Source: Minisyncoccota bacterium (GTDB lineage: Bacteria; Patescibacteriota; Minisyncoccia; UBA6257; 2-01-FULL-56-20). From it: 64,000 nt of DNA. The stretch covers positions 190,585-254,584 of the forward strand of contig JBAYLC010000001.1 in the NCBI GenBank assembly GCA_041664245.1, in the 5' to 3' direction. A program made the translations under genes and the position numbers. The notes beneath the pieces are model-generated. The model was not told the DNA's origin. It ran no database searches and saw only the letters and a program-made list of their open reading frames with translations. Positions 6,330 through 56,106 of the stretch are shown here, piece by piece; within the stretch, counting starts at the first letter, position 1; each line of letters begins with the position of its first letter.

Positions 6330-6358
6330 TTGACAAAATATTTCTAAGACGCTATAAT
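6330..6358 (+). promoter_or_regulatory. Consensus sigma70 promoter TTGACA-N17-TATAAT for the flotillin gene
   Basis: TTGACA 6330-6335, 17-nt spacer, TATAAT 6353-6358; AAGGAGG SD at 6428-6434; GTG start 6439. Confidence 0.7.
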
Positions 6359-8853: not shown

Positions 8854-8871
8854 TAATTTGTAACTTAGCAA

Positions 8872-8905
8872 CCCACCCTGTTGGATACAGGGTGGGCTTT
8901 TTTTT
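8872..8905 (+). terminator. Intrinsic terminator after flotillin gene
   Basis: CCCACCCTG-ttggata-CAGGGTGGG followed by T9. Confidence 0.8.
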
Positions 8906-9033
8906 GCCTTTTTAAAATCCTTACATTAAACTCTTCTGTATCTACCCCCTATAGGTCCAAGACTGGGGGCAGTTCTCGTATTCATATAAAACCATAATTC
9001 GTAATTCTTTATTCCTAATTCACGTTTAACAAA

Positions 9034-11553
9034 ATGAAAGACAAAATAATTATCAAAGGCGCCCGCGAGCATAATCTGAAAAATATTAATCTCGAAATTC
9101 CTCGCGATAAAATGATTGTTTTTACTGGGTTATCTGGTTCCGGAAAATCTTCGCTGGCTTTTGATACCATTTTCGCCGAAGGCCAACGCCGCTATATTGA
9201 ATCCCTTTCCGCCTACGCCCGGCAGTTTTTAGGCCGGCTCGATAAACCCGACGTCGATGAAATTGAAGGTCTCTCGCCGTCAATTTCTATTGATCAAAAA
9301 AGCCATTCGTCCAATCCTCGTTCCATCGTTGCGACCATCACGGAAATTTACGACTATCTCCGCGTTCTTTTCGCGCGGGTTGGCAAGCCGTTTTGCCCCA
9401 AGTGCGGCAAAGAAATCCGCCGAATGACCAATGAAGAGATTGTCGACGCTGCCATTGATTTTTCCAAAGCTCACAAAAATATTCGCGAAATTACAATTCT
9501 TGCGCCCGTGGTGCGGGGACGAAAAGGGGAGTATTACCAGATGCTTTACGATTTTCTAAACGCCGGTTTTTCGGAAGTTCGTTTAGATGGAGAATTCAAA
9601 TCGCTTCGCCATCGGATTGAACTAAGCCGTTATAAACAGCACACGATTGAATTAATCGTCGATAAAATTCCCGGCAATATGAATTTCAAGGAAAAAGATA
9701 ATCGGCTTCGCTTGGCCGAGGCCGTTGAATCAGCGCTTAAATACGGCCATGATGTTATCACGATTTTAATCGGCGGTGAAGAACTTTCCTTGTCTTCAAA
9801 ATTCGCCTGCCCCGAAGATAATTTTTCCTTTCCCGAAATCGAACCCCGCTTGTTTTCGTTTAATAGCCCCTATGGCGCTTGTCCGGAATGCCATGGATTA
9901 GGCACGGAAGATGTCTGGTCCGAAAAAATTTGTTTGCTCTGCCAAGGCAAGCGATTAAAAGAAGAAGCGCTTAACGTTTTAATAAAAAATAAAAATATTG
10001 TTTCCTTAACTGCTTTATCAATTTCCGAAGCGTTCGCTTTTTTCACCAAACTAGAAGAATCATCGGCCGATAAATTTATGGCCGTGGCCGAACTGCCGCT
10101 TCGGGAAATCAAAAGCCGTTTGAAGTTTATGATTGATGTCGGTCTTGATTATCTGACTCTCGATCGCAAGGCCGGAACGCTCTCGGGCGGCGAGGCGCAA
10201 AGAATTCGATTAGCTTCTCAAATCGGTTCTCGCTTGGTTGGCACTTTATATATTTTAGACGAACCGACGATTGGTCTTCATCAGCGCGATAACGCTAAAC
10301 TAATCAAAACTCTCCATGATCTCCGCGACATTGGCAACACAATTATCGTTGTTGAACACGACGAAGAAACTATTCGAGAATCAGATTATCTTGTTGATTT
10401 TGGACCCGCCGCCGGCGTTCACGGCGGCAAGATTGTTGCCCAAGGGCCGATCCCGGAAATTTTTAAAGACCCAAAGCAAAGTTCGCTTACTCTGGATTAT
10501 TTAAACGGCAAGAAGTCAATTCCTATTCCCGATGAACGCCGTAAAATCGGGAAAAATCAAGAATATTTAAAAATCAAAAGCGCCTTTGCTAATAATCTTC
10601 AAAACATTGATATTAACATTCCTCTCCGGCGTTTTACCGCCATCACCGGTGTTTCCGGTTCGGGTAAAAGTTCGCTCCTTTATGATGTCATCTATAAATC
10701 CCTTTCTGACGGTGTAAGTCGCGCCAGAAGCAAGCCAGAGGGCTGTAAAGGGGTTCTAGGCACGGAATACTTTAACCGCACGATAAATATTGACCAATCA
10801 GCAATCGGTCGCACTCCGCGCTCCAATCCGGCGACCTACGTCGGCGCTTGGACTCATGTTCGTGATCTTTTTGCCTCCACGCCTGATGCCCGAGTTCGCG
10901 GTTATAAACCCGGCCGATTTAGTTTTAATGTTCCCGGCGGGCGTTGTGAAAACTGCGAAGGCCACGGCACCATCGCCATTGAAATGCATTTTTTGCCGAC
11001 CGTTTATGTTGAATGCGATATTTGCCACGGCAAACGTTTTGATCGGGAAACATTAGAGGTTGAGTATAACGGAAAAAATATCCATGACGTTTTAAAAATG
11101 ACCGTCGAAGAGGCCGTGAAATTTTTCCGCGATATCCCGTGGCTTCACGAAAGATTAAATATTTTAGAAGAAGTCGGTCTTGGTTATCTTGAGCTCGGCC
11201 AATCCGCTACCACTCTTTCGGGCGGTGAAGCTCAAAGAGTTAAGCTCTCGGCCGAGCTTGGCAAGCGCGATACCCATCGCACGCTTTATCTTCTAGACGA
11301 ACCAACCACCGGCCTTCATTTCGGCGATATTCAAAAACTTCTGGAAGTTTTGAATCGTCTCGTGGAAAAAGGGAATACAGTTGTTTTAATTGAGCACAAC
11401 TTAGACGTTATTAAAACCGCCGACTGGGTAATTGACCTCGGTCCCGAAGGCGGAGTGAAAGGCGGCAAAATTATCGCCGAGGGAACGCCGGAAGAAATCG
11501 CCAGAAAGGCAAATAGTTTTACCGGCGAATATTTAAGAAAAGTTTTGAAGTAA
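9034..11553 (+). CDS. uvrA: Excinuclease ABC subunit A (UvrA), short form with reduced insertion domain
   Basis: Two ABC ATPase modules ([14 protein letters not shown]; [13 protein letters not shown]), zinc-finger cysteines, LSGGE signatures; 839 aa versus about 940 typical. Confidence 0.95.
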
Positions 11554-17817: not shown

Positions 17818-18141
17818 ATGATTCCTTATGAAGATTTTTCAAAAATTGATTTAAGAGTAGTAAAAATATTAAATGCCGAAAGAATCTCTGGTTCGGATAA
17901 ACTTTTAAAACTTCAAGTTAACTTAGGTGAGGAAGGAAATCGCCAAATCATCGCCGGCATCGGAAAAGTCTACAATCCAGAAACTTTAGCCAATAAAGAG
18001 ATAATTATCGTTTCCAATTTAGAAACCCGAATTCTCTTAGGTGAAGAAAGCCAAGGAATGCTTCTTGCCGCCTCTGGTGAAAATGGCCCAGTTCTATTAG
18101 TTCCTGAAAAAGAGACTCCGCCTGGCGCCAAAATCAGTTAA
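17818..18141 (+). CDS. tRNA-binding domain protein (CsaA/Trbp111/MetRS C-terminal domain-like)
   Basis: KIDLRVVKILNAERISGSDKLLKLQVNLGEEGNRQIIAGI classic OB-fold tRNA-binding domain. Confidence 0.8.
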   Translation: MIPYEDFSKIDLRVVKILNAERISGSDKLLKLQVNLGEEGNRQIIAGIGKVYNPETLANKEIIIVSNLETRILLGEESQGMLLAASGENGPVLLVPEKETPPGAKIS

Positions 18142-18204
18142 TTTGACCGGTTAGTAGAGCTTCGAATAAACACACGCCGAAGAATTCGGAGTTTCACTAC
18201 TCGG

Positions 18205-18233
18205 TTGACAAAATTACTCAAACCGATTATAAC
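18205..18233 (+). promoter_or_regulatory. Consensus sigma70 promoter TTGACA-N17-TATAAC driving a non-coding transcript
   Basis: TTGACA 18205-18210, 17-nt spacer, TATAAC 18228-18233. Confidence 0.6.
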
Positions 18234-18239
18234 AAACGA

Positions 18240-18445
18240 AGATACTCCATTTAGTCAAGCCATTGCCTGGGTCCTATGACATCCAATCCCGGGCTCTGAT
18301 TCCTTCGGTTTCAACCAAGACCGGAGGGCTTAAGCGTTGACGTGCGTGAAAAAGCTTATCCTGCCTAACATCCCCCCATAGCTTTTTGCGTATGTCAACG
18401 CCCATTCCTACCGGGGCAGCCATCGACTGCCCCGTTTTTTATTTC
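18240..18445 (+). ncRNA. Candidate structured ncRNA or riboswitch-like leader (about 205 nt), class unassigned
   Basis: Own promoter, no ORF, several stable stems (CCUUCGGU/ACCGGAGG; GCGUUGAC...GUCAACGC), ends in GGGGCAG-loop-CUGCCCC + U6 terminator 49 nt before a micro-ORF. Confidence 0.45.
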
Positions 18446-18498
18446 TTGTGTGATATAATACCCAAGTCGGGTAAAATATTTTTTTTATCACCATCAAT

Positions 18499-18651
18499 AT
18501 GCTAAGGCACTATATCTGCCCTGGCGGCTGTGAGGGAGTTTCCGAAAAACAAGGAGTTTGTCAGGCCAAGGATTGTGAAAGAAATGGCGAGGCGCTCGAA
18601 GAGTGCGATTGTCAAAATGGCGCTCATCATCGATCGGAAAATAATCAATAA
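18499..18651 (+). CDS. Cys-rich micro-protein (50 aa, 6 Cys + HH)
   Basis: MLRHYICPGGCEGVSEKQGVCQAKDCERNGEALEECDCQNGAHHRSENNQ; unlisted (below 60 aa); extended -10 TGaTATAAT at 18451-18459; no SD. Confidence 0.4.
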   Translation: MLRHYICPGGCEGVSEKQGVCQAKDCERNGEALEECDCQNGAHHRSENNQ

Positions 18652-18659
18652 AAATAAAA

Positions 18660-18875
18660 ATGACTCAAAAAACTGATGTCCACGGGTTTGTTGTCGTTTA
18701 TGAAGAAAATAGTCGTGAGGGAGTTGCTTATCTTCGCGATGATCTCGATTTAAATGAGGCCCGGGTTTTCTTTGACCAAGCAAAAATAAAAGGTTCTGCC
18801 GAGTTTGAAGATGACGACGATCGGCCATTTACTTTGAGCTATCACGACGGCGAATATACTTTGATTCACCGTTAA
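18660..18875 (+). CDS. Hypothetical acidic small protein (71 aa)
   Basis: ORF directly after Cys-rich ORF; no recognisable domain. Confidence 0.4.
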   Translation: MTQKTDVHGFVVVYEENSREGVAYLRDDLDLNEARVFFDQAKIKGSAEFEDDDDRPFTLSYHDGEYTLIHR

Positions 18876-18912: not shown

Positions 18913-19761
18913 ATGCCAATAATCGGCGCTCATGTTTCCACCGCCGGCGGTCTTTCTATGGTGGCTCAAAACGCCAATCGAATTGGCGCTCAAGCCCTTC
19001 AGATTTTTGGCGCTTCGCCCCGGCAGTGGCAAGCTAAAATTCCGGAAAAAATTGAGGTTTCAAAATATCAGGCCGAACTAAAAAAATACAAACTCGGCCC
19101 AGTTTTTCTTCATGCCGCCTATCTAGTGAATCTCGCCAGCCCCGACGAAATGATCCGGGCAAAATCCATAATGTCTTTGACGGCCCATCTTAAAATATCC
19201 GAGGCGATCGGCGCCGAAGGATTAATTTTTCACGTCGGCTCTGGTAAGGAAGCGCCAAAAGAAGAAGCAATGAGTCATATTATTGAAGGCGTAAAAAAAG
19301 TGCTTAAAGAAGTCCCCGGTCAGGCTAAAATTATTCTGGAAAATTCTGCCGGCGGGGGACAGAAACTCGGTTCAAATGCTAAGGAAGTCGGCCAGCTTTT
19401 AGAAAAAATAAATTCTCCGCGCGCCAAAGTTTGTTTTGATACTGCCCACGCTTTCGAAGCGGGGATTATAGAATCTTATTCGCCGGAAAATATTAAAAAA
19501 CTTTTCGACGAATGGGATAGGGGAGTAGGTCTAGAAAATTTTGCCGCCCTTCACGTAAACGATTCCAAAACCGCTTTCAATTCCCATAATGATCGCCATG
19601 AAAATCTCGGCGAGGGTTTTATTGGCCTTAATGGTTTCAAGAATCTCGCAAAAGAAAAAAGAATTAATATTTTGCCGTGGCTTTTAGAAGTTCCCGGTTT
19701 TGATAATCTTGGACCAGACAAAGAAAATGTCGAAATTTTGAAGAAATGTTTTGTGGTATAA
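18913..19761 (+). CDS. nfo: Endonuclease IV (AP endonuclease, Nfo)
   Basis: TIM-barrel AP endonuclease 2 family, MPIIGAHVSTAGG start and metal-binding His/Asp/Glu pattern. Confidence 0.92.
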   Translation: MPIIGAHVSTAGGLSMVAQNANRIGAQALQIFGASPRQWQAKIPEKIEVSKYQAELKKYKLGPVFLHAAYLVNLASPDEMIRAKSIMSLTAHLKISEAIGAEGLIFHVGSGKEAPKEEAMSHIIEGVKKVLKEVPGQAKIILENSAGGGQKLGSNAKEVGQLLEKINSPRAKVCFDTAHAFEAGIIESYSPENIKKLFDEWDRGVGLENFAALHVNDSKTAFNSHNDRHENLGEGFIGLNGFKNLAKEKRINILPWLLEVPGFDNLGPDKENVEILKKCFVV

Positions 19762-19796: not shown

Positions 19797-20423
19797 ATGG
19801 CTAAACACGTTCTTCCCCAGCTTCCATACATCTACAACGCCCTTGAGCCGTACATCGACGCGCAAACGATGGAAATTCATTACTCCAAACACCATCAAGC
19901 ATATGTTAATAATTTGAACGCCGCGCTGGAAAAATATCCCGAGTTGTTTGAAAAACCGCTTGAAGAATTAATTAAAAACCCAGCTAGTATCCCGGAAGAT
20001 ATCCGAACGGCCGTTCAAAATAACGGCGGCGGCCATCTAAATCACAGCTTTTTCTGGCAAGTTATGGCGCCCGCCTCCGCTGAAGCTGTGGCGGGCAAGC
20101 CCAACGAGCCAACTGGCGAACTAGCCGAATTAATCAATAAAAATTTTCAAAACTTTACTAACTTTAAGGAACTTTTCACTAAAGCCGCCACCGGCCGTTT
20201 TGGCAGCGGTTGGGTTTGGTTAAGCCAAACTCCGGCAGGGGAATTAAAGATTCATTCCACCGCCAACCAAGACAGCCCATTGATCGAAGGACTTAAACCG
20301 CTTTTGACTTTGGACGTCTGGGAACACGCCTATTATCTAAAATACCAAAACCGCCGCGCTGATTATATTGCGGCTTGGTGGAATGTGGTCAATTGGGAAA
20401 AAGTATCAGAAAATTTAGAATAA
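19797..20423 (+). CDS. sodA: Superoxide dismutase, Fe/Mn family
   Basis: [28 protein letters not shown] signatures; extended -10 TGGTATAAT at 19754-19762. Confidence 0.95.
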
Positions 20424-36550: not shown

Positions 36551-36721
36551 CTAGTTGTCGATGTTTTTAACAATATACATCGCAAACACCAGAGCGCAAA
36601 GTGCGCAACCGACACCAAATCCGATCAAATAACTGCGAGTCGCCAAGCCAAACATAGTGCCAGAGGCAGCTGTAAACCCGAGAAAAAGAAAAACATCACT
36701 AGACTTAATCTTAACTTTCAT
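36551..36721 (-). CDS. Small membrane protein (56 aa, hypothetical)
   Basis: GGAGGA SD 4 nt upstream of ATG, two TM-like segments (MKVKIKSSDVFLFLGFTAASGTMFGLATRSYLIGFGVGCALCALVFAMYIVKNIDN); unlisted; replaces + strand ORF 36521..36745. Confidence 0.45.
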   Translation of the reverse strand: MKVKIKSSDVFLFLGFTAASGTMFGLATRSYLIGFGVGCALCALVFAMYIVKNIDN

Positions 36722-52349: not shown

Positions 52350-52423
52350 TGCGCCCACTAGGATTTGAACCTAGGACCATCTCCTTAAAAGGGAGCTGCT
52401 CTACCAGACTGAGCTATGGGCGC
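52350..52423 (-). tRNA. tRNA-Lys (anticodon UUU)
   Basis: Cloverleaf: acceptor GCGCCCA/TGGGCGC, D-arm GCTC-AGTCTGGTA-GAGC, anticodon loop CTTTTAA, T-arm CTAGG-TTCAAAT-CCTAG; no encoded CCA. Confidence 0.9.
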
Positions 52424-53889: not shown

Positions 53890-56106
53890 ATGACTCTTAA
53901 GATTCCCGCATCAAAATCAAATTACGTCCTCCACCTTAGTTCCTATCCTCCTCGGGAGTGCGGCATTGCCACCTTCACTCAAGATTTAACTCTTGCTATA
54001 GATAATAAATTTAACCCCGCCATCAAATCAAGAATTATTGCCCTGAATGATCAGTCCACCAGCATTTATAACTACAACAATAGAGTTTTTGGAGAAATAA
54101 CCGCCACCGAAATCGAAAATTATGTTAATCTCGCTAGGGAAATCAATACTCGTTCGGACGTAAAAATTGTTAATATTCAGCACGAATTCGGTCTTTTTGG
54201 CGGCAGCTGGGGCGATTATTTGATTCCATTCCTTCAAGTCATTGAGAAACCCGTAGTTGTTACCTTCCACTCCGTTCTTTCTGGCCCCGAGGAGGAGCTT
54301 CGTAATATTGTCCGTTCCATCGCTGAAAAATCTGCCGCCCTCGTGGTCATGAATAAACTATCAGAAACGATATTGCTCAAGGAATACGGCATTCCTAAGG
54401 AAAAAGTCGTTATGATTCCCCACGGTATCCCGCAGGCTTCGTTTGAACCAAGTGATAAATTTAAATTGGAGCATGGTTTTGAGGGAAAAATTGTTCTTTC
54501 AACCTTTGGTCTTCTAAGTCCCAATAAAGGCATTCAATATGCCATTCGCGCTCTGCCAGAAGTAGTAAAAAAATATCCGAATGTTATCTATCTGGTTTTA
54601 GGCGCCACCCATCCGAACATTCGAAAAGAAAAAGGCGAGATTTACCGTAACGCTCTTAACGTTGAAGTTGAAAAACTAGGATTGAAAGATCACGTTAAGT
54701 TTTACAATAAATACCTAACTATTGAAGAAATTATCAGCTACCTGAAAGCAACTGATATTTATATTTCTCCGACCGTTGATCCCGATCAATCAGTGAGCGG
54801 CACGCTTTCTTATGCCATGGGTTGCGGCCGGCCGATTGTAAGCACTGCCACCGCATATGCCAAGTATTTAGTTACCGCAAAAAATGGAATTCTAGTGAAT
54901 TTTCGAAGCGCCAATTCAATTTCCGACGCCATTCTGAAGCTCTTGGATGATCCCAAAAAAATGAAATCATTAAGCAGTGAAGCCTACGAAGTTACTCGCC
55001 CAATGACCTGGCCAAACGTTGCCACCTCTTATTTCAAACTCTACGAAAATTTGGTTGATCTAGAAAGAGAAGAAAGAAAACTTCCAGAAATTAATCTTTC
55101 CCATCTTACGAGAATGACCGATAACTTTGGAATTTTTCATTTTGCTAAATATAGCAAACCAGAAAAACGTTATGGTTATAGTTTGGACGACAACGCTCGC
55201 GCTCTCGTCGTTTGCGCTAAATATTTTAAACTGAATCCCAAACCCGAAATAGAAAATCTGTTAAATATATTTTTGAAATTCATTAAATTTACCCAGCGGC
55301 CAAGCGGTACTTTTGCTAATATTGTCTCCTATCAAAAACAGAAAGACGCTACCACCGACGAGGACGTGCAGGGGAGAGCCATCTGGGCGCTCGGTTATGC
55401 CGCTTCGCAAACTTTATTGCCGGAAAAAGTAAGGTTGGAAGCGGAACGAATGCTCAAAAAAGCCCTGCCCCATGCCTTAAAAATTATTTCCCCCCGTGCT
55501 GTTGCCTTCACTCTCTCCGGCTTGTATTTCTACCTGAAACAAAATCCCGACAAGAAATTAACCGGCGAATTTATAAAATTAGCCGATCATCAGCTTAATC
55601 ATTACAAAAACGTTGCTTCGGAGGATTGGCATTGGTTTGAGGATCAGCTGACTTATTCAAATAGCAAACTGCCAGAATCTCTAATCTATGCTTACGATCT
55701 CATCGGCGATAAAAAATACCTAGAAGTCGCCAAAAAAACTGTGAACTTCCTTGATCAAATCACTTTTGAAAAAGATTATTATTCACCGATTGGCCAGAAC
55801 GGCTGGTACTTCCGCCAGAAAAAACGCTCCTATTTTGACCAGCAACCCGAAGACACTGCTTCTACGGTTGAAACAAAAGTCACTGCTTATAAAGTCACCA
55901 AAGATAAAAAACACCTGAAAGACGCCTACACGGCCTTCCAATGGTTCCTCGGGAAAAACCACCTTGGCCAGATGGTCTACGATGAAGTTACCGGCGGTTG
56001 CTGCGACGGCGTAGGCCAATACGCGATCAACCTCAACCAAGGCGCCGAATCAACTATTTCTTACTTAATGGCTCGCCTCGCGATTGAAGAGATTAAGGAA
56101 AATTAA
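53890..56106 (+). CDS. GT4 glycosyltransferase fused to C-terminal (alpha/alpha)6-barrel glycoside-hydrolase-like domain
   Basis: N-terminal GT-B fold about 400 aa; C-terminal about 330 aa with GYSLDDNARAL, QGRAIWALGYAAS, GGCCDGVGQY toroid-like motifs. Confidence 0.7.
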   Translation: MTLKIPASKSNYVLHLSSYPPRECGIATFTQDLTLAIDNKFNPAIKSRIIALNDQSTSIYNYNNRVFGEITATEIENYVNLAREINTRSDVKIVNIQHEFGLFGGSWGDYLIPFLQVIEKPVVVTFHSVLSGPEEELRNIVRSIAEKSAALVVMNKLSETILLKEYGIPKEKVVMIPHGIPQASFEPSDKFKLEHGFEGKIVLSTFGLLSPNKGIQYAIRALPEVVKKYPNVIYLVLGATHPNIRKEKGEIYRNALNVEVEKLGLKDHVKFYNKYLTIEEIISYLKATDIYISPTVDPDQSVSGTLSYAMGCGRPIVSTATAYAKYLVTAKNGILVNFRSANSISDAILKLLDDPKKMKSLSSEAYEVTRPMTWPNVATSYFKLYENLVDLEREERKLPEINLSHLTRMTDNFGIFHFAKYSKPEKRYGYSLDDNARALVVCAKYFKLNPKPEIENLLNIFLKFIKFTQRPSGTFANIVSYQKQKDATTDEDVQGRAIWALGYAASQTLLPEKVRLEAERMLKKALPHALKIISPRAVAFTLSGLYFYLKQNPDKKLTGEFIKLADHQLNHYKNVASEDWHWFEDQLTYSNSKLPESLIYAYDLIGDKKYLEVAKKTVNFLDQITFEKDYYSPIGQNGWYFRQKKRSYFDQQPEDTASTVETKVTAYKVTKDKKHLKDAYTAFQWFLGKNHLGQMVYDEVTGGCCDGVGQYAINLNQGAESTISYLMARLAIEEIKEN

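What the first reader, a model, noticed from the sequence alone, without database searches (positions are those of the whole stretch)
18205..18445. Promoter-to-terminator non-coding transcript (about 205 nt) of unassigned class
A perfect TTGACA-N17-TATAAC promoter (18205-18233) is followed by roughly 200 nt with no ORF but several stable helices (for example CCUUCGGU/ACCGGAGG enclosing a 10-nt loop, and GCGUUGAC.../...GUCAACGC). It ends in a canonical intrinsic terminator (GGGGCAG-loop-CUGCCCC-U6, 18413-18445). A second extended -10 promoter and a Cys-rich micro-ORF lie 49 nt downstream. This layout is also what a riboswitch or attenuator leader looks like. Motifs of SRP RNA, tmRNA, 6S, and the TPP, FMN, SAM, glycine and cobalamin riboswitches were checked by eye and not found.
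Basis: seen in the sequence. Interest (0 to 1): 0.65.

Follow-up and report, generated by a model that had tools for sequence, protein, structure and literature searches.

The report
Lineage-specific small RNA with C-rich loop
This is a real, independently transcribed, strongly folded small RNA of about 200 nt, matching no catalogued family and found only in a narrow group of uncultured Paceibacterota (CPR) bacteria, next to oxidative-stress genes; it probably acts as a regulatory RNA through a conserved cytosine-rich loop, but its targets are unknown.

Summary
TTGACA-N17-TATAAC (18205-18233), about 200 nt with no conserved ORF, three hairpin domains and a strong intrinsic terminator (18412-18440) are all present. 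The + strand folds far better than shuffles (z = -6.2; - strand -2.05). No Rfam 15 family matches, even at E <= 10. I found five further distinct versions of the unit in related Paceibacterota contigs. They form two subtypes, always just upstream of the same cluster: Cys-rich micro-ORF, 71-aa protein, endonuclease IV, Fe/Mn SOD. Promoter, length and terminator are kept. Helices are maintained by compensatory and wobble-compatible changes, and no peptide is conserved. Between subtypes only one feature survives: a C-rich apical loop (YCUGCC...C6) on the long hairpin before the terminator, duplicated in one subtype. That motif occurs by chance only 3 times in 1.48 Mb. The micro-ORF keeps its own -10 element in all six loci, and no terminator/antiterminator alternative is conserved, so a riboswitch or attenuator is unlikely. 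Best reading (inferred): a trans-acting sRNA whose C-rich loop is the seed, analogous to RsaE/RoxS, IsrR or RsaC. No target was identified, and Shine-Dalgarno sites are rare here. It is a new, narrow sRNA family of moderate interest.

The parts
18152..18199 (+). 16-bp hairpin (GUAGUAGAGCUUCGAA / UUCGGAGUUUCACUAC) between the tRNA_bind stop codon and the sRNA promoter. It is probably the 3' end or terminator structure of the upstream tRNA-binding-domain gene, not part of the sRNA.
   Evidence: Read. The same inverted repeat is found in L138 (I1). Relative to the window it carries G-U to A-U and C-G to U-A changes.
18205..18233 (+). Sigma-70-type promoter: -35 TTGACA (18205-10), 17-nt spacer, -10 TATAAC (18228-33).
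   Evidence: It is identical in L136 and L138. L084, L135 and L137 have TTGACA-N16-TATAAT at the equivalent place.
18240..18257 (+). Predicted 5' single-stranded leader, AGAUACUCCAUUUAGUCA. The start site near 18240 is inferred from the -10 position.
   Evidence: Unpaired in the MFE folds of all three W-type variants. The start site is an inference.
18258..18301 (+). Helix P1 (18258-62/18297-301) encloses hairpin P2 (18265-71/18288-94), whose 16-nt loop UCCURUGACAUCCAAU is nearly invariant.
   Evidence: Curated alignment. P1 shows a C-G to U-A compensatory change, and P2 shows G-C to G-U changes.
18302..18327 (+). Hairpin P3: CCUUCGGU / ACCGGAGG with a 10-nt loop.
   Evidence: U-A/U-G swaps keep both pairs in L136 and L138.
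18334..18401 (+). Long hairpin P4 (21 bp, two single-nucleotide bulges plus an unpaired G) capped by the 23-nt C-rich loop UAUCCUGCCUAACAUCCCCCCAU (18357-18379). This loop is the only element shared with the second subtype and is the proposed functional (seed) element.
   Evidence: The motif YCUG(CC..)C6 is present in all six variants and occurs only 3 times by chance in 1.48 Mb.
18412..18440 (+). Intrinsic terminator: 8-bp G+C-rich stem, 7-nt loop, U6.
   Evidence: There is a compensatory G-C to A-U change in L138. A terminator is present at the same place in all six variants.
18451..18459 (+). Separate extended -10 promoter element (TGaTATAAT) of the downstream Cys-rich ORF. It marks the boundary of the sRNA unit.
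   Evidence: A -10 element directly upstream of the ORF is kept in L136, L138, L084, L135 and L137, although the flanks have diverged.
18499..18651 (+). Neighbouring gene, not part of the RNA: a conserved 50-aa Cys-rich protein. It is the first gene of the cluster Cys-ORF, 71-aa protein (18660-18875), endonuclease IV (18913-19761), Fe/Mn SOD (19797-20423).

Best explanation
The region is a stand-alone small-RNA gene. A near-consensus sigma-70 promoter drives an RNA of about 200 nt: a 5' single-stranded leader, hairpins P1/P2, P3 and P4, then a strong intrinsic terminator. It belongs to a narrow family in uncultured Paceibacterota (Patescibacteria/CPR) that has two divergent subtypes. Both subtypes lie directly upstream of, and in the same direction as, a redox/metal-stress cluster: Cys-rich micro-protein, 71-aa protein, endonuclease IV, Fe/Mn superoxide dismutase. 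The scaffold evolves fast while the helices are preserved. The only element conserved across subtypes is the unpaired C-rich apical loop (YCUGCC...CCCCCC) of the long terminator-proximal hairpin, which one subtype carries twice. I infer that this loop is the business end. Most likely the RNA acts in trans and uses the C-rich loop as a seed to pair with G-rich stretches in target RNAs, changing their translation or stability, as the C-rich-loop sRNAs of Firmicutes do (RsaE/RoxS, IsrR/FsrA, RsaC). Shown here: the sequence features, the conservation, structure-preserving substitutions, the strand, the lack of any Rfam match, and independence from the downstream ORF. Inferred: transcription, the 5' end, trans action, the seed role of the loop, and any link to oxidative or metal stress.
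For: The promoter and terminator are present and above chance. The fold is strand-specific: z = -6.2 on + versus -2.05 on -, and the homologues give z = -7.6 and -4.6. W-type variants L136 and L138 were compared in a curated alignment of 49 pairs. Of these, 35 are invariant, 9 show one-sided changes that all keep pairing through G-U, 2 are compensatory, and 3 have non-pairs only at helix ends. G-U pairs make up 17 of 142 cells, which fixes the strand. The L084-type has 7-8 compensatory pairs. No peptide is conserved: frames differ between variants (and my reading). The C-rich motif sits in the apical loop of the last hairpin in all six variants and is unpaired in every MFE fold. It occurs only 3 times outside these RNA loci in 1.48 Mb, all unrelated; one checked (L005) lies in a coding region. 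In L084, L135 and L137 the loop hairpin is duplicated (GAG-UUUCCUNGCCCCCU-CUC), a pattern typical of redundant seeds or binding sites. The Cys-ORF keeps its own -10 element in all loci. Literature analogues are RoxS/RsaE (PMC4409812), RsaC, which modulates the oxidative stress response during Mn starvation (PMC6765141), and IsrR (PMC11257911).
Against: There is no expression data. No target was found. Duplex scans of neighbouring genes and of all translation-initiation regions in the 64-kb window gave nothing conserved or striking. The recurring hits are simply glycine-codon G-runs inside nfo and the Cys-ORF. Shine-Dalgarno sequences, the classic target of C-rich sRNA loops, are rare in this organism (3 of 49 long ORFs). 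The two subtypes cannot be linked statistically by sequence or covariance model, so their relationship rests on synteny, architecture and the loop motif. Only six distinct sequences from close relatives exist, too few for an R-scape-type significance test. The -10 hexamer lacks the usual final T.
Confidence: 0.45

Rival explanations
1. It is a protein-binding or sequestering RNA. The repeated C-rich apical loops would be binding sites for an RNA-binding protein, for example a KH-type poly(C) binder. The RNA would then titrate or scaffold that protein, as CsrB/RsmZ do for CsrA.
For: The nearly identical loop hairpins in L084, L135 and L137 are closed by the same GAG/CUC pairs. The near-consensus promoter suggests abundance. 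No base-pairing target was found, and SD sites are rare.
Against: The W-type has only one such loop, and an insertion (UAACAU) splits the motif. No candidate binding protein is linked to the locus. The adjacent 71-aa protein occurs in many genomes without the RNA and has no recognisable RNA-binding fold. The loops carry no GGA motif, so CsrA itself is not the partner.
Confidence: 0.2
2. It is a cis-acting leader (riboswitch, or protein- or tRNA-dependent attenuator) that controls read-through into the Cys-ORF, 71-aa, nfo and sod operon.
For: The position and orientation directly upstream of the same operon are constant in all six loci. The structured domain is followed by a terminator. In P3 the segment ACCRAG-ACCGRRG offers two alternative partners for CUUCGGU (my reading).
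Against: The Cys-ORF has its own conserved -10 element in every locus; in the L084-type it lies 6 nt before the ATG, so that mRNA would be leaderless. The terminator-to-ORF distance varies from about 58 to 230 nt and contains unrelated repeats. No conserved sequence can pair with the terminator 5' arm: the loop/terminator complementarity seen in the window is absent in the L084-type. The putative aptamer part is not conserved between subtypes, whereas riboswitch aptamers are the most conserved part. In L137 the ORF is truncated but the RNA is intact. Cys-ORF homologues elsewhere lack the RNA. No Rfam cis-regulatory family matches.
Confidence: 0.1
3. It is a highly divergent copy of a housekeeping RNA (6S, SRP/4.5S, or similar) that Rfam models fail to recognise in CPR bacteria.
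For: The promoter is strong, the size is about 200 nt, the RNA has its own terminator, and CPR RNAs are often atypical.
Against: No Rfam hit appears even at E <= 10 for three variants. The 5' and 3' ends do not pair and there is no rod with a central bubble, so it is not 6S-like. There is no GNRA-capped helix with SRP domain IV loops. The RNA is absent from syntenic loci of slightly more distant relatives and shows very fast sequence turnover, which is unlike an essential RNA.
Confidence: 0.04
4. It has no function of its own: a decaying gene remnant or mobile-element-derived palindromic DNA that happens to carry promoter-like and terminator-like sequences.
For: The distribution is narrow. MITE-like repeats lie nearby (L138 insertion, L084 repeats).
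Against: Helices are kept by compensatory and wobble changes on one strand only. Promoter, terminator and the loop motif are retained across two subtypes whose neighbouring proteins are only 58-83% identical. The feature is single-copy in the window. In L138 a MITE inserted at the -35 element regenerates TTGACA.
Confidence: 0.06

Closest known systems
RsaE / RoxS (Rfam RF01820), C-rich-loop sRNA of Bacillales (PMC4409812)
   Same: It is a stand-alone sRNA gene with its own promoter and intrinsic terminator. Unpaired C-rich motifs sit in hairpin loops and are sometimes repeated. It is linked to redox physiology. The scaffold diverges while the C-rich seed stays.
   Different: There is no sequence or covariance-model similarity. 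This RNA is about twice as long, and its motif is YCUGCC...C6 rather than UCCC/CCCC next to U. The host rarely uses Shine-Dalgarno sites. The phylum is different (Patescibacteria). Targets and regulation are unknown.
IsrR / FsrA and RsaC (iron- or manganese-responsive C-rich sRNAs; PMC11257911, PMC6765141)
   Same: These sRNAs carry C-rich regions and are tied to metal and oxidative stress; RsaC modulates the oxidative stress response during manganese starvation (PMC6765141; that it acts by repressing sodA is my own recollection, not read here). Here the sRNA sits beside a Fe/Mn SOD gene, endonuclease IV and a Cys/His-rich micro-protein.
   Different: No Fur or PerR box is recognisable at the promoter (my own reading). 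No complementarity to the sod or nfo initiation regions was found. There is no homology, and RsaC is 3'UTR-derived while this RNA has its own promoter.
CsrB/RsmY/RsmZ-type protein-sponge RNAs
   Same: A short loop motif is repeated on hairpins of an otherwise fast-evolving RNA that ends in a terminator.
   Different: The loops are C-rich and have no GGA motif. There are only one or two motif copies. No partner protein is known.
Riboswitch or transcription-attenuation leaders
   Same: A structured 5' region is followed by an intrinsic terminator upstream of an operon in the same orientation.
   Different: The operon has its own conserved promoter and the spacer is variable. There is no conserved antiterminator and no conserved aptamer core between subtypes.

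Membership tests
Any Rfam 15 family (4227 covariance models) | A covariance-model match at or near the family's gathering score | tested here: not met
   At gathering thresholds the whole window gives only one tRNA, at 52350-52423. At E <= 10 the window 18100-18700, L135 and L084 give only chance-level hits far below gathering.
RsaE/RoxS-like C-rich sRNA | Homology to RF01820 (sequence plus structure) | tested here: not met
   There is no RF01820 hit at E <= 10 in any of three variants.
RsaE/RoxS-like C-rich sRNA | Unpaired C-rich motif(s) in hairpin loops, conserved while the scaffold varies | tested here: met
   The loop YCUG(CC..)C6 is unpaired in all six MFE folds. It is the only element shared by both subtypes and is rare by chance.
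RsaE/RoxS-like C-rich sRNA | The seed pairs with Shine-Dalgarno or G-rich sites of target mRNAs | tested here: inconclusive
   No conserved or striking site was found in neighbouring genes or in the initiation regions of the 64-kb window. SD motifs precede only 3 of 49 long ORFs. The full genomes were not available.
Stand-alone bacterial sRNA gene | Own promoter and own Rho-independent terminator, non-coding, conserved in relatives | tested here: met
   promoter and terminator; conservation; no conserved ORF.
Stand-alone bacterial sRNA gene | A discrete transcript is detected in vivo | not testable with these tools
   No RNA-seq or metatranscriptome data were accessible.
Riboswitch / attenuator leader | Mutually exclusive terminator and antiterminator, conserved among homologues | tested here: not met
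   The loop B / terminator complementarity (CUGCCCC vs GGGGCAG) exists in the window and L136. It is weakened in L138 and absent in the L084-type.
Riboswitch / attenuator leader | The leader is contiguous with the regulated ORF, with no intervening promoter | tested here: not met
   A conserved -10 element lies directly upstream of the Cys-ORF in all six loci. The spacer is about 58-230 nt and contains repeat insertions.
6S RNA | Rod-like fold with paired 5'/3' ends and a large central bubble | tested here: not met
   MFE and centroid folds show three or four independent hairpins and an unpaired 5' end. There is no RF00013 hit.
SRP (4.5S) RNA | Domain IV helix with a GNRA tetraloop and conserved symmetric and asymmetric loops | tested here: not met
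   No SRP model hit was found. The apical loops are 10-23 nt and C-rich, not GNRA.

The most novel reading that the evidence does not exclude
This would be the first defined riboregulator family of Paceibacterota (CPR). It is an abundant ~200-nt RNA whose conserved YCUGCC...C6 loop does not mask Shine-Dalgarno sites, which are nearly absent here. Instead it would pair with a G-rich element elsewhere, for example coding-region Gly-codon runs of stress genes such as nfo, or a G-rich rRNA segment such as the GGGNGGCAG stretch of 16S helix 13/14. Alternatively it would sequester a poly(C)-binding protein. Either way it would couple the adjacent SOD / endonuclease IV / Cys-rich-protein cluster to redox or metal stress.
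Probability: 0.25. Interest if true: 0.6.

Novelty: new member of a known kind. Interest (0 to 1): 0.45.

Why it matters
Regulatory RNAs of the Candidate Phyla Radiation are essentially uncharted, because the organisms are uncultured and standard RNA family libraries were built from other phyla. My literature searches found no description of an sRNA in these bacteria. This locus gives a concrete candidate supported by structure-preserving substitutions, with a clear putative functional element (the C-rich loop) and a defined genomic context of oxidative and metal-stress genes. It also raises a specific question: what does a C-rich seed target in an organism that rarely uses Shine-Dalgarno sequences? 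The family is narrow and its function unproven, so the impact is moderate.

Tried and rejected
- **Rfam.** Scans at gathering and at E <= 10 on three variants found nothing.
- **Sequence searches.** blastn and nhmmer of the RNA against 80 syntenic tRNA_bind loci from GTDB genomes found nothing beyond identical copies.
- **Linking the subtypes.** nhmmer, blastn and covariance models between the two subtypes gave no significant match.
- **More distant loci.** 42 metagenome loci carrying the 71-aa gene have no RNA. Six loci with more distant Cys-ORF homologues have none either.
- **Apparent second copy in the window.** A motif at about 55464-55495 lies inside a 738-aa glycosyltransferase ORF and is chance. 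An L005 motif hit is also coding.
- **Viral contig scans.** Two conserved blocks gave 0 hits.
- **Target searches.** Duplex folding of loops and leader against neighbouring initiation regions, the whole window, all window initiation regions, and the downstream operon in five genomes gave only G-rich Gly-codon runs (nfo about +430, Cys-ORF about +22 to +48). Nothing was conserved at start sites.
- **Small-ORF reading.** A UUG 9 nt after the GGAGG in P3 opens a frame, but the peptides are not conserved and the start codon is buried in P4. Rejected.
- **tRNA-Gly anticodon-loop mimicry** (U-GCC). Rejected because position 37 is a pyrimidine.
- **Fur/PerR operator at the promoter.** No convincing box by eye. 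The TCGGTT/AACCGA inverted repeat is not kept in L138.
- **Neighbouring proteins.** PDB sequence searches found nothing useful. A confident AlphaFold model of the 71-aa protein (pLDDT 94) has no significant PDB fold match. The Cys-rich protein model has only moderate confidence.

Full report
**1. The observation**

- TTGACA lies at 18205-18210, followed by a 17-nt spacer and TATAAC at 18228-18233.
- About 200 nt follow without a meaningful ORF.
- A G+C-rich hairpin, CGGGGCAG-7 nt-CUGCCCCG, lies at 18412-18434 and is followed by T6 at 18435-18440.
- TGaTATAAT lies at 18451-18459, and a 50-codon Cys-rich ORF starts at 18499.

The promoter scanner skipped the site only because the -10 hexamer ends in C. 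In the whole window there are 8 sites with at least 11 of 12 matches to the sigma-70 consensus, against 1.6 +/- 1.1 in randomised sequence. This organism therefore uses canonical promoters, and this site is one of the best.

As RNA, the + strand from 18238 to 18445 folds to -75.1 kcal/mol. That gives z = -6.18, and none of 200 dinucleotide shuffles folds as well. The reverse strand gives z = -2.05.

**2. No known family matches**

- Rfam 15 at gathering thresholds finds only one tRNA in the 64 kb.
- At E <= 10, the region and two homologous regions give only chance hits far below threshold.
- The RNA is single-copy in the window.

**3. Source and context**

Identical copies of the region lie on a 287-kb JGI contig and a Logan contig. 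A source names the proteins as Candidatus Paceibacterota.

The gene order is:
- tRNA-binding-domain protein (17818-18141)
- the RNA
- Cys-rich 50-aa ORF (18499-18651)
- 71-aa protein of unknown function (18660-18875)
- endonuclease IV (18913-19761)
- Fe/Mn superoxide dismutase (19797-20423).

**4. Relatives**

Plain sequence searches fail outside identical copies. Walking along homologues of the 71-aa and Cys-rich proteins recovered five further distinct versions of the same unit, always directly upstream of the Cys-ORF and in the same orientation.
- W-type: L136:1583-1784 and L138:165-353 (identical to L139).
- L084-type: L084:341-560 (identical to L085 and L086), L135:509-727 and L137:30-251.

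All six have TTGACA-N16/17-TATAAY, about 190-220 nt, and a strong terminator. L084 and L135 fold with z = -7.6 and -4.6.

The unit is absent in several related settings:
- In Wolfebacteria-like loci the tRNA_bind gene abuts the 71-aa gene.
- It is missing from 42 metagenome loci carrying the 71-aa gene.
- It is missing next to more distant Cys-ORF homologues, whose neighbours are a pyridine-nucleotide-disulfide oxidoreductase or a VIT1 iron/manganese transporter.

**5. Structure support**

For the W-type I built a segment-wise alignment of three sequences with 49 base pairs.
- 35 pairs are invariant.
- 9 pairs change on one side, always keeping a pair through G-U.
- 2 pairs are compensatory: C-G to U-A in P1 and G-C to A-U in the terminator.
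- 3 pairs have a non-pair, all at helix ends.
- 17 of 142 cells are G-U, which would be C-A on the other strand. The transcribed strand is therefore +.

For the L084-type, RNAalifold finds 7 compensatory pairs and no broken pair between L084 and L135, and 8 with L137 added. The pairs listed as broken there lie in regions with indels, where each sequence forms its own equivalent helix. Open reading frames across the region differ between variants, so no peptide is conserved. With only six sequences from close relatives this is good qualitative support, not a statistical proof.

**6. What is conserved between the subtypes**

A covariance model built from the L084-type does not find the window's RNA, even with filters off. 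A W-type profile does not find the L084-type. The 5' domains differ:
- The W-type has P1/P2 with loop UCCURUGACAUCCAAU, plus P3.
- The L084-type has one long hairpin.

What the two subtypes share is position, orientation, promoter, size and terminator. They also share a long terminator-proximal hairpin whose apical loop carries YCUGCC followed by a run of six or more C.

| Variant | Apical loop |
|---|---|
| Window | UAUCCUGCCUAACAUCCCCCCAU |
| L136 | CAUCCUGCCUUAUAUCCCCCCCAUU |
| L138 | CCGUUCUGCCCCCUACAACCCCCCCU |
| L084-type | UUUCCUGCCCCCCU |

In the L084-type a second hairpin carries almost the same loop (UUUCCUAGCCCCCU in L135 and L137), closed by the same GAG/CUC pairs. Across 1.48 Mb of scanned sequence (both strands of the window and all fetched loci) the motif occurs only three times outside these RNAs. 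The one I inspected lies inside a coding region. I conclude that the two subtypes are divergent homologues, or at least functional equivalents, and that the C-rich loop is the selected element.

**7. Cis or trans**

Several observations argue against the riboswitch or attenuator alternative.
- A -10 element directly upstream of the Cys-ORF is kept in all six loci although the flanks diverge.
- In the L084-type this element lies 6 nt before the ATG, which implies a leaderless mRNA.
- The terminator-to-ORF distance ranges from about 58 to 230 nt and includes unrelated repeats.
- No sequence able to compete with the terminator stem is conserved.
- In L137 the Cys-ORF is truncated while the RNA is intact.

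**8. Mechanism**

The pattern is a fast-evolving scaffold, a conserved unpaired C-rich loop that is sometimes duplicated, an own promoter and an own terminator. This is the signature of trans-acting sRNAs of Gram-positive bacteria that use C-rich loops as seeds: RsaE/RoxS (PMC4409812), IsrR (PMC11257911) and RsaC (PMC6765141). Several of these are tied to redox or metal stress, and the neighbourhood here has the same flavour (SOD, endonuclease IV, a Cys/His-rich micro-protein). That is my preferred explanation.

Two caveats weaken it.
- Shine-Dalgarno motifs precede only 3 of 49 long ORFs in the window.
- I found no conserved complementary site in the neighbouring genes or in any initiation region of the window.

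A protein-sponge role for the repeated loops is the main rival. The adjacent 71-aa protein is not an obvious partner. It occurs widely without the RNA, and its confident AlphaFold model (pLDDT 94) has no significant PDB fold match.

**9. Comparison and novelty**

The RNA works like a C-rich-loop sRNA, but it is not a member of RsaE/RoxS or of any other Rfam family. The membership features "covariance-model match" and "homology" were tested and not met. Literature searches found no description of sRNAs in Patescibacteria. I file it as a new family of a known kind, with a narrow distribution. Expression, targets and physiological role remain to be shown.

**10. Verdict**

Interest is moderate (0.45).

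Noticed in passing
window 18499-18651 (also L136:1841-1993, L138:419-571, L084:792-953, L135:864-1025, L116:230-457, L140-L145): The Cys-rich micro-ORF is a real, conserved small-protein family: H-Y-x-C-x-G-x-C-x-G...G-x-C-x4-C...L-x-E-C-x-C-x2-G-x-H, with six invariant Cys and two invariant His. It has no Pfam, NCBIfam or PDB match. Gene callers missed it on the two copies of this contig examined (L001, L002). Elsewhere it sits next to Pyr_redox_2 or VIT1 genes, which suggests a metal or redox role.
   Followed up: partly
window 18660-18875: The 71-aa protein family (motifs YLRDDLD..EA.VFFDQA...AEFEDD.DRQFTL) is widespread in Paceibacterota and Wolfebacteria. It has no Pfam family. AlphaFold gives a very confident beta-beta-alpha-alpha-beta-beta-beta fold (pLDDT 94) with no significant PDB match; there is only a faint, non-significant resemblance to RelE/HigB-type toxins.
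   Followed up: partly
L138:54-133 (= L139:55-134): A roughly 70-bp palindromic MITE-like element, with 14-bp terminal inverted repeats ATCCCGTTAGAAAT/ATTTCTAACGGGAT, is inserted exactly at the -35 element of the sRNA promoter. TTGA is present on both sides, so a TTGACA hexamer is regenerated.
   Followed up: partly
L084:127-181 and 559-625: Short dispersed repeats (TATTTTATCTCGCCGWAGT and CAYCTGTGCGAAGGAGG) flank the sRNA gene on both sides. A perfect 34-bp palindrome lies at L084:81-114, just after the upstream terminator.
   Followed up: no
L137:330-420: In this variant the Cys-rich ORF appears truncated by a deletion; only the C-terminal '...EECNCQDG...' part remains after the -10 element. 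The upstream sRNA is intact.
   Followed up: no
window, whole 64 kb: Shine-Dalgarno motifs are rare (3 of 49 ORFs of >=150 aa), although a few genes have strong ones, for example GGAGGA before the 56-aa membrane protein at 36551-36721 (- strand). Near-perfect TTGACA-N17-TATAAT promoters are over-represented (8 observed versus 1.6 expected), with 12/12 matches at 6330 (+), 46855 (+), 61640 (+) and 36787 (-). In L084, L135 and L137 the Cys-ORF promoter implies a leaderless mRNA.
   Followed up: partly
window 8940-8975: An intergenic hairpin, ACCCCC...GGGGGCAG, contains one of the few G-runs complementary to the sRNA loop motif (CUGCCCCC). It lies between a terminator (about 8870-8905) and the gene starting near 9034. 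It was not evaluated as a target.
   Followed up: no
L097:366-627; L119:493-915 / L120:1524-1971: Two other conspicuous non-coding stretches lie next to 71-aa gene homologues. In L097 an inverted repeat of about 25 bp encloses a ~200-nt structured region. In L119 and L120 a tRNA-like gene is followed by a second strongly structured segment ending in a tRNA-like 3' part. Neither is related to the sRNA.
   Followed up: no
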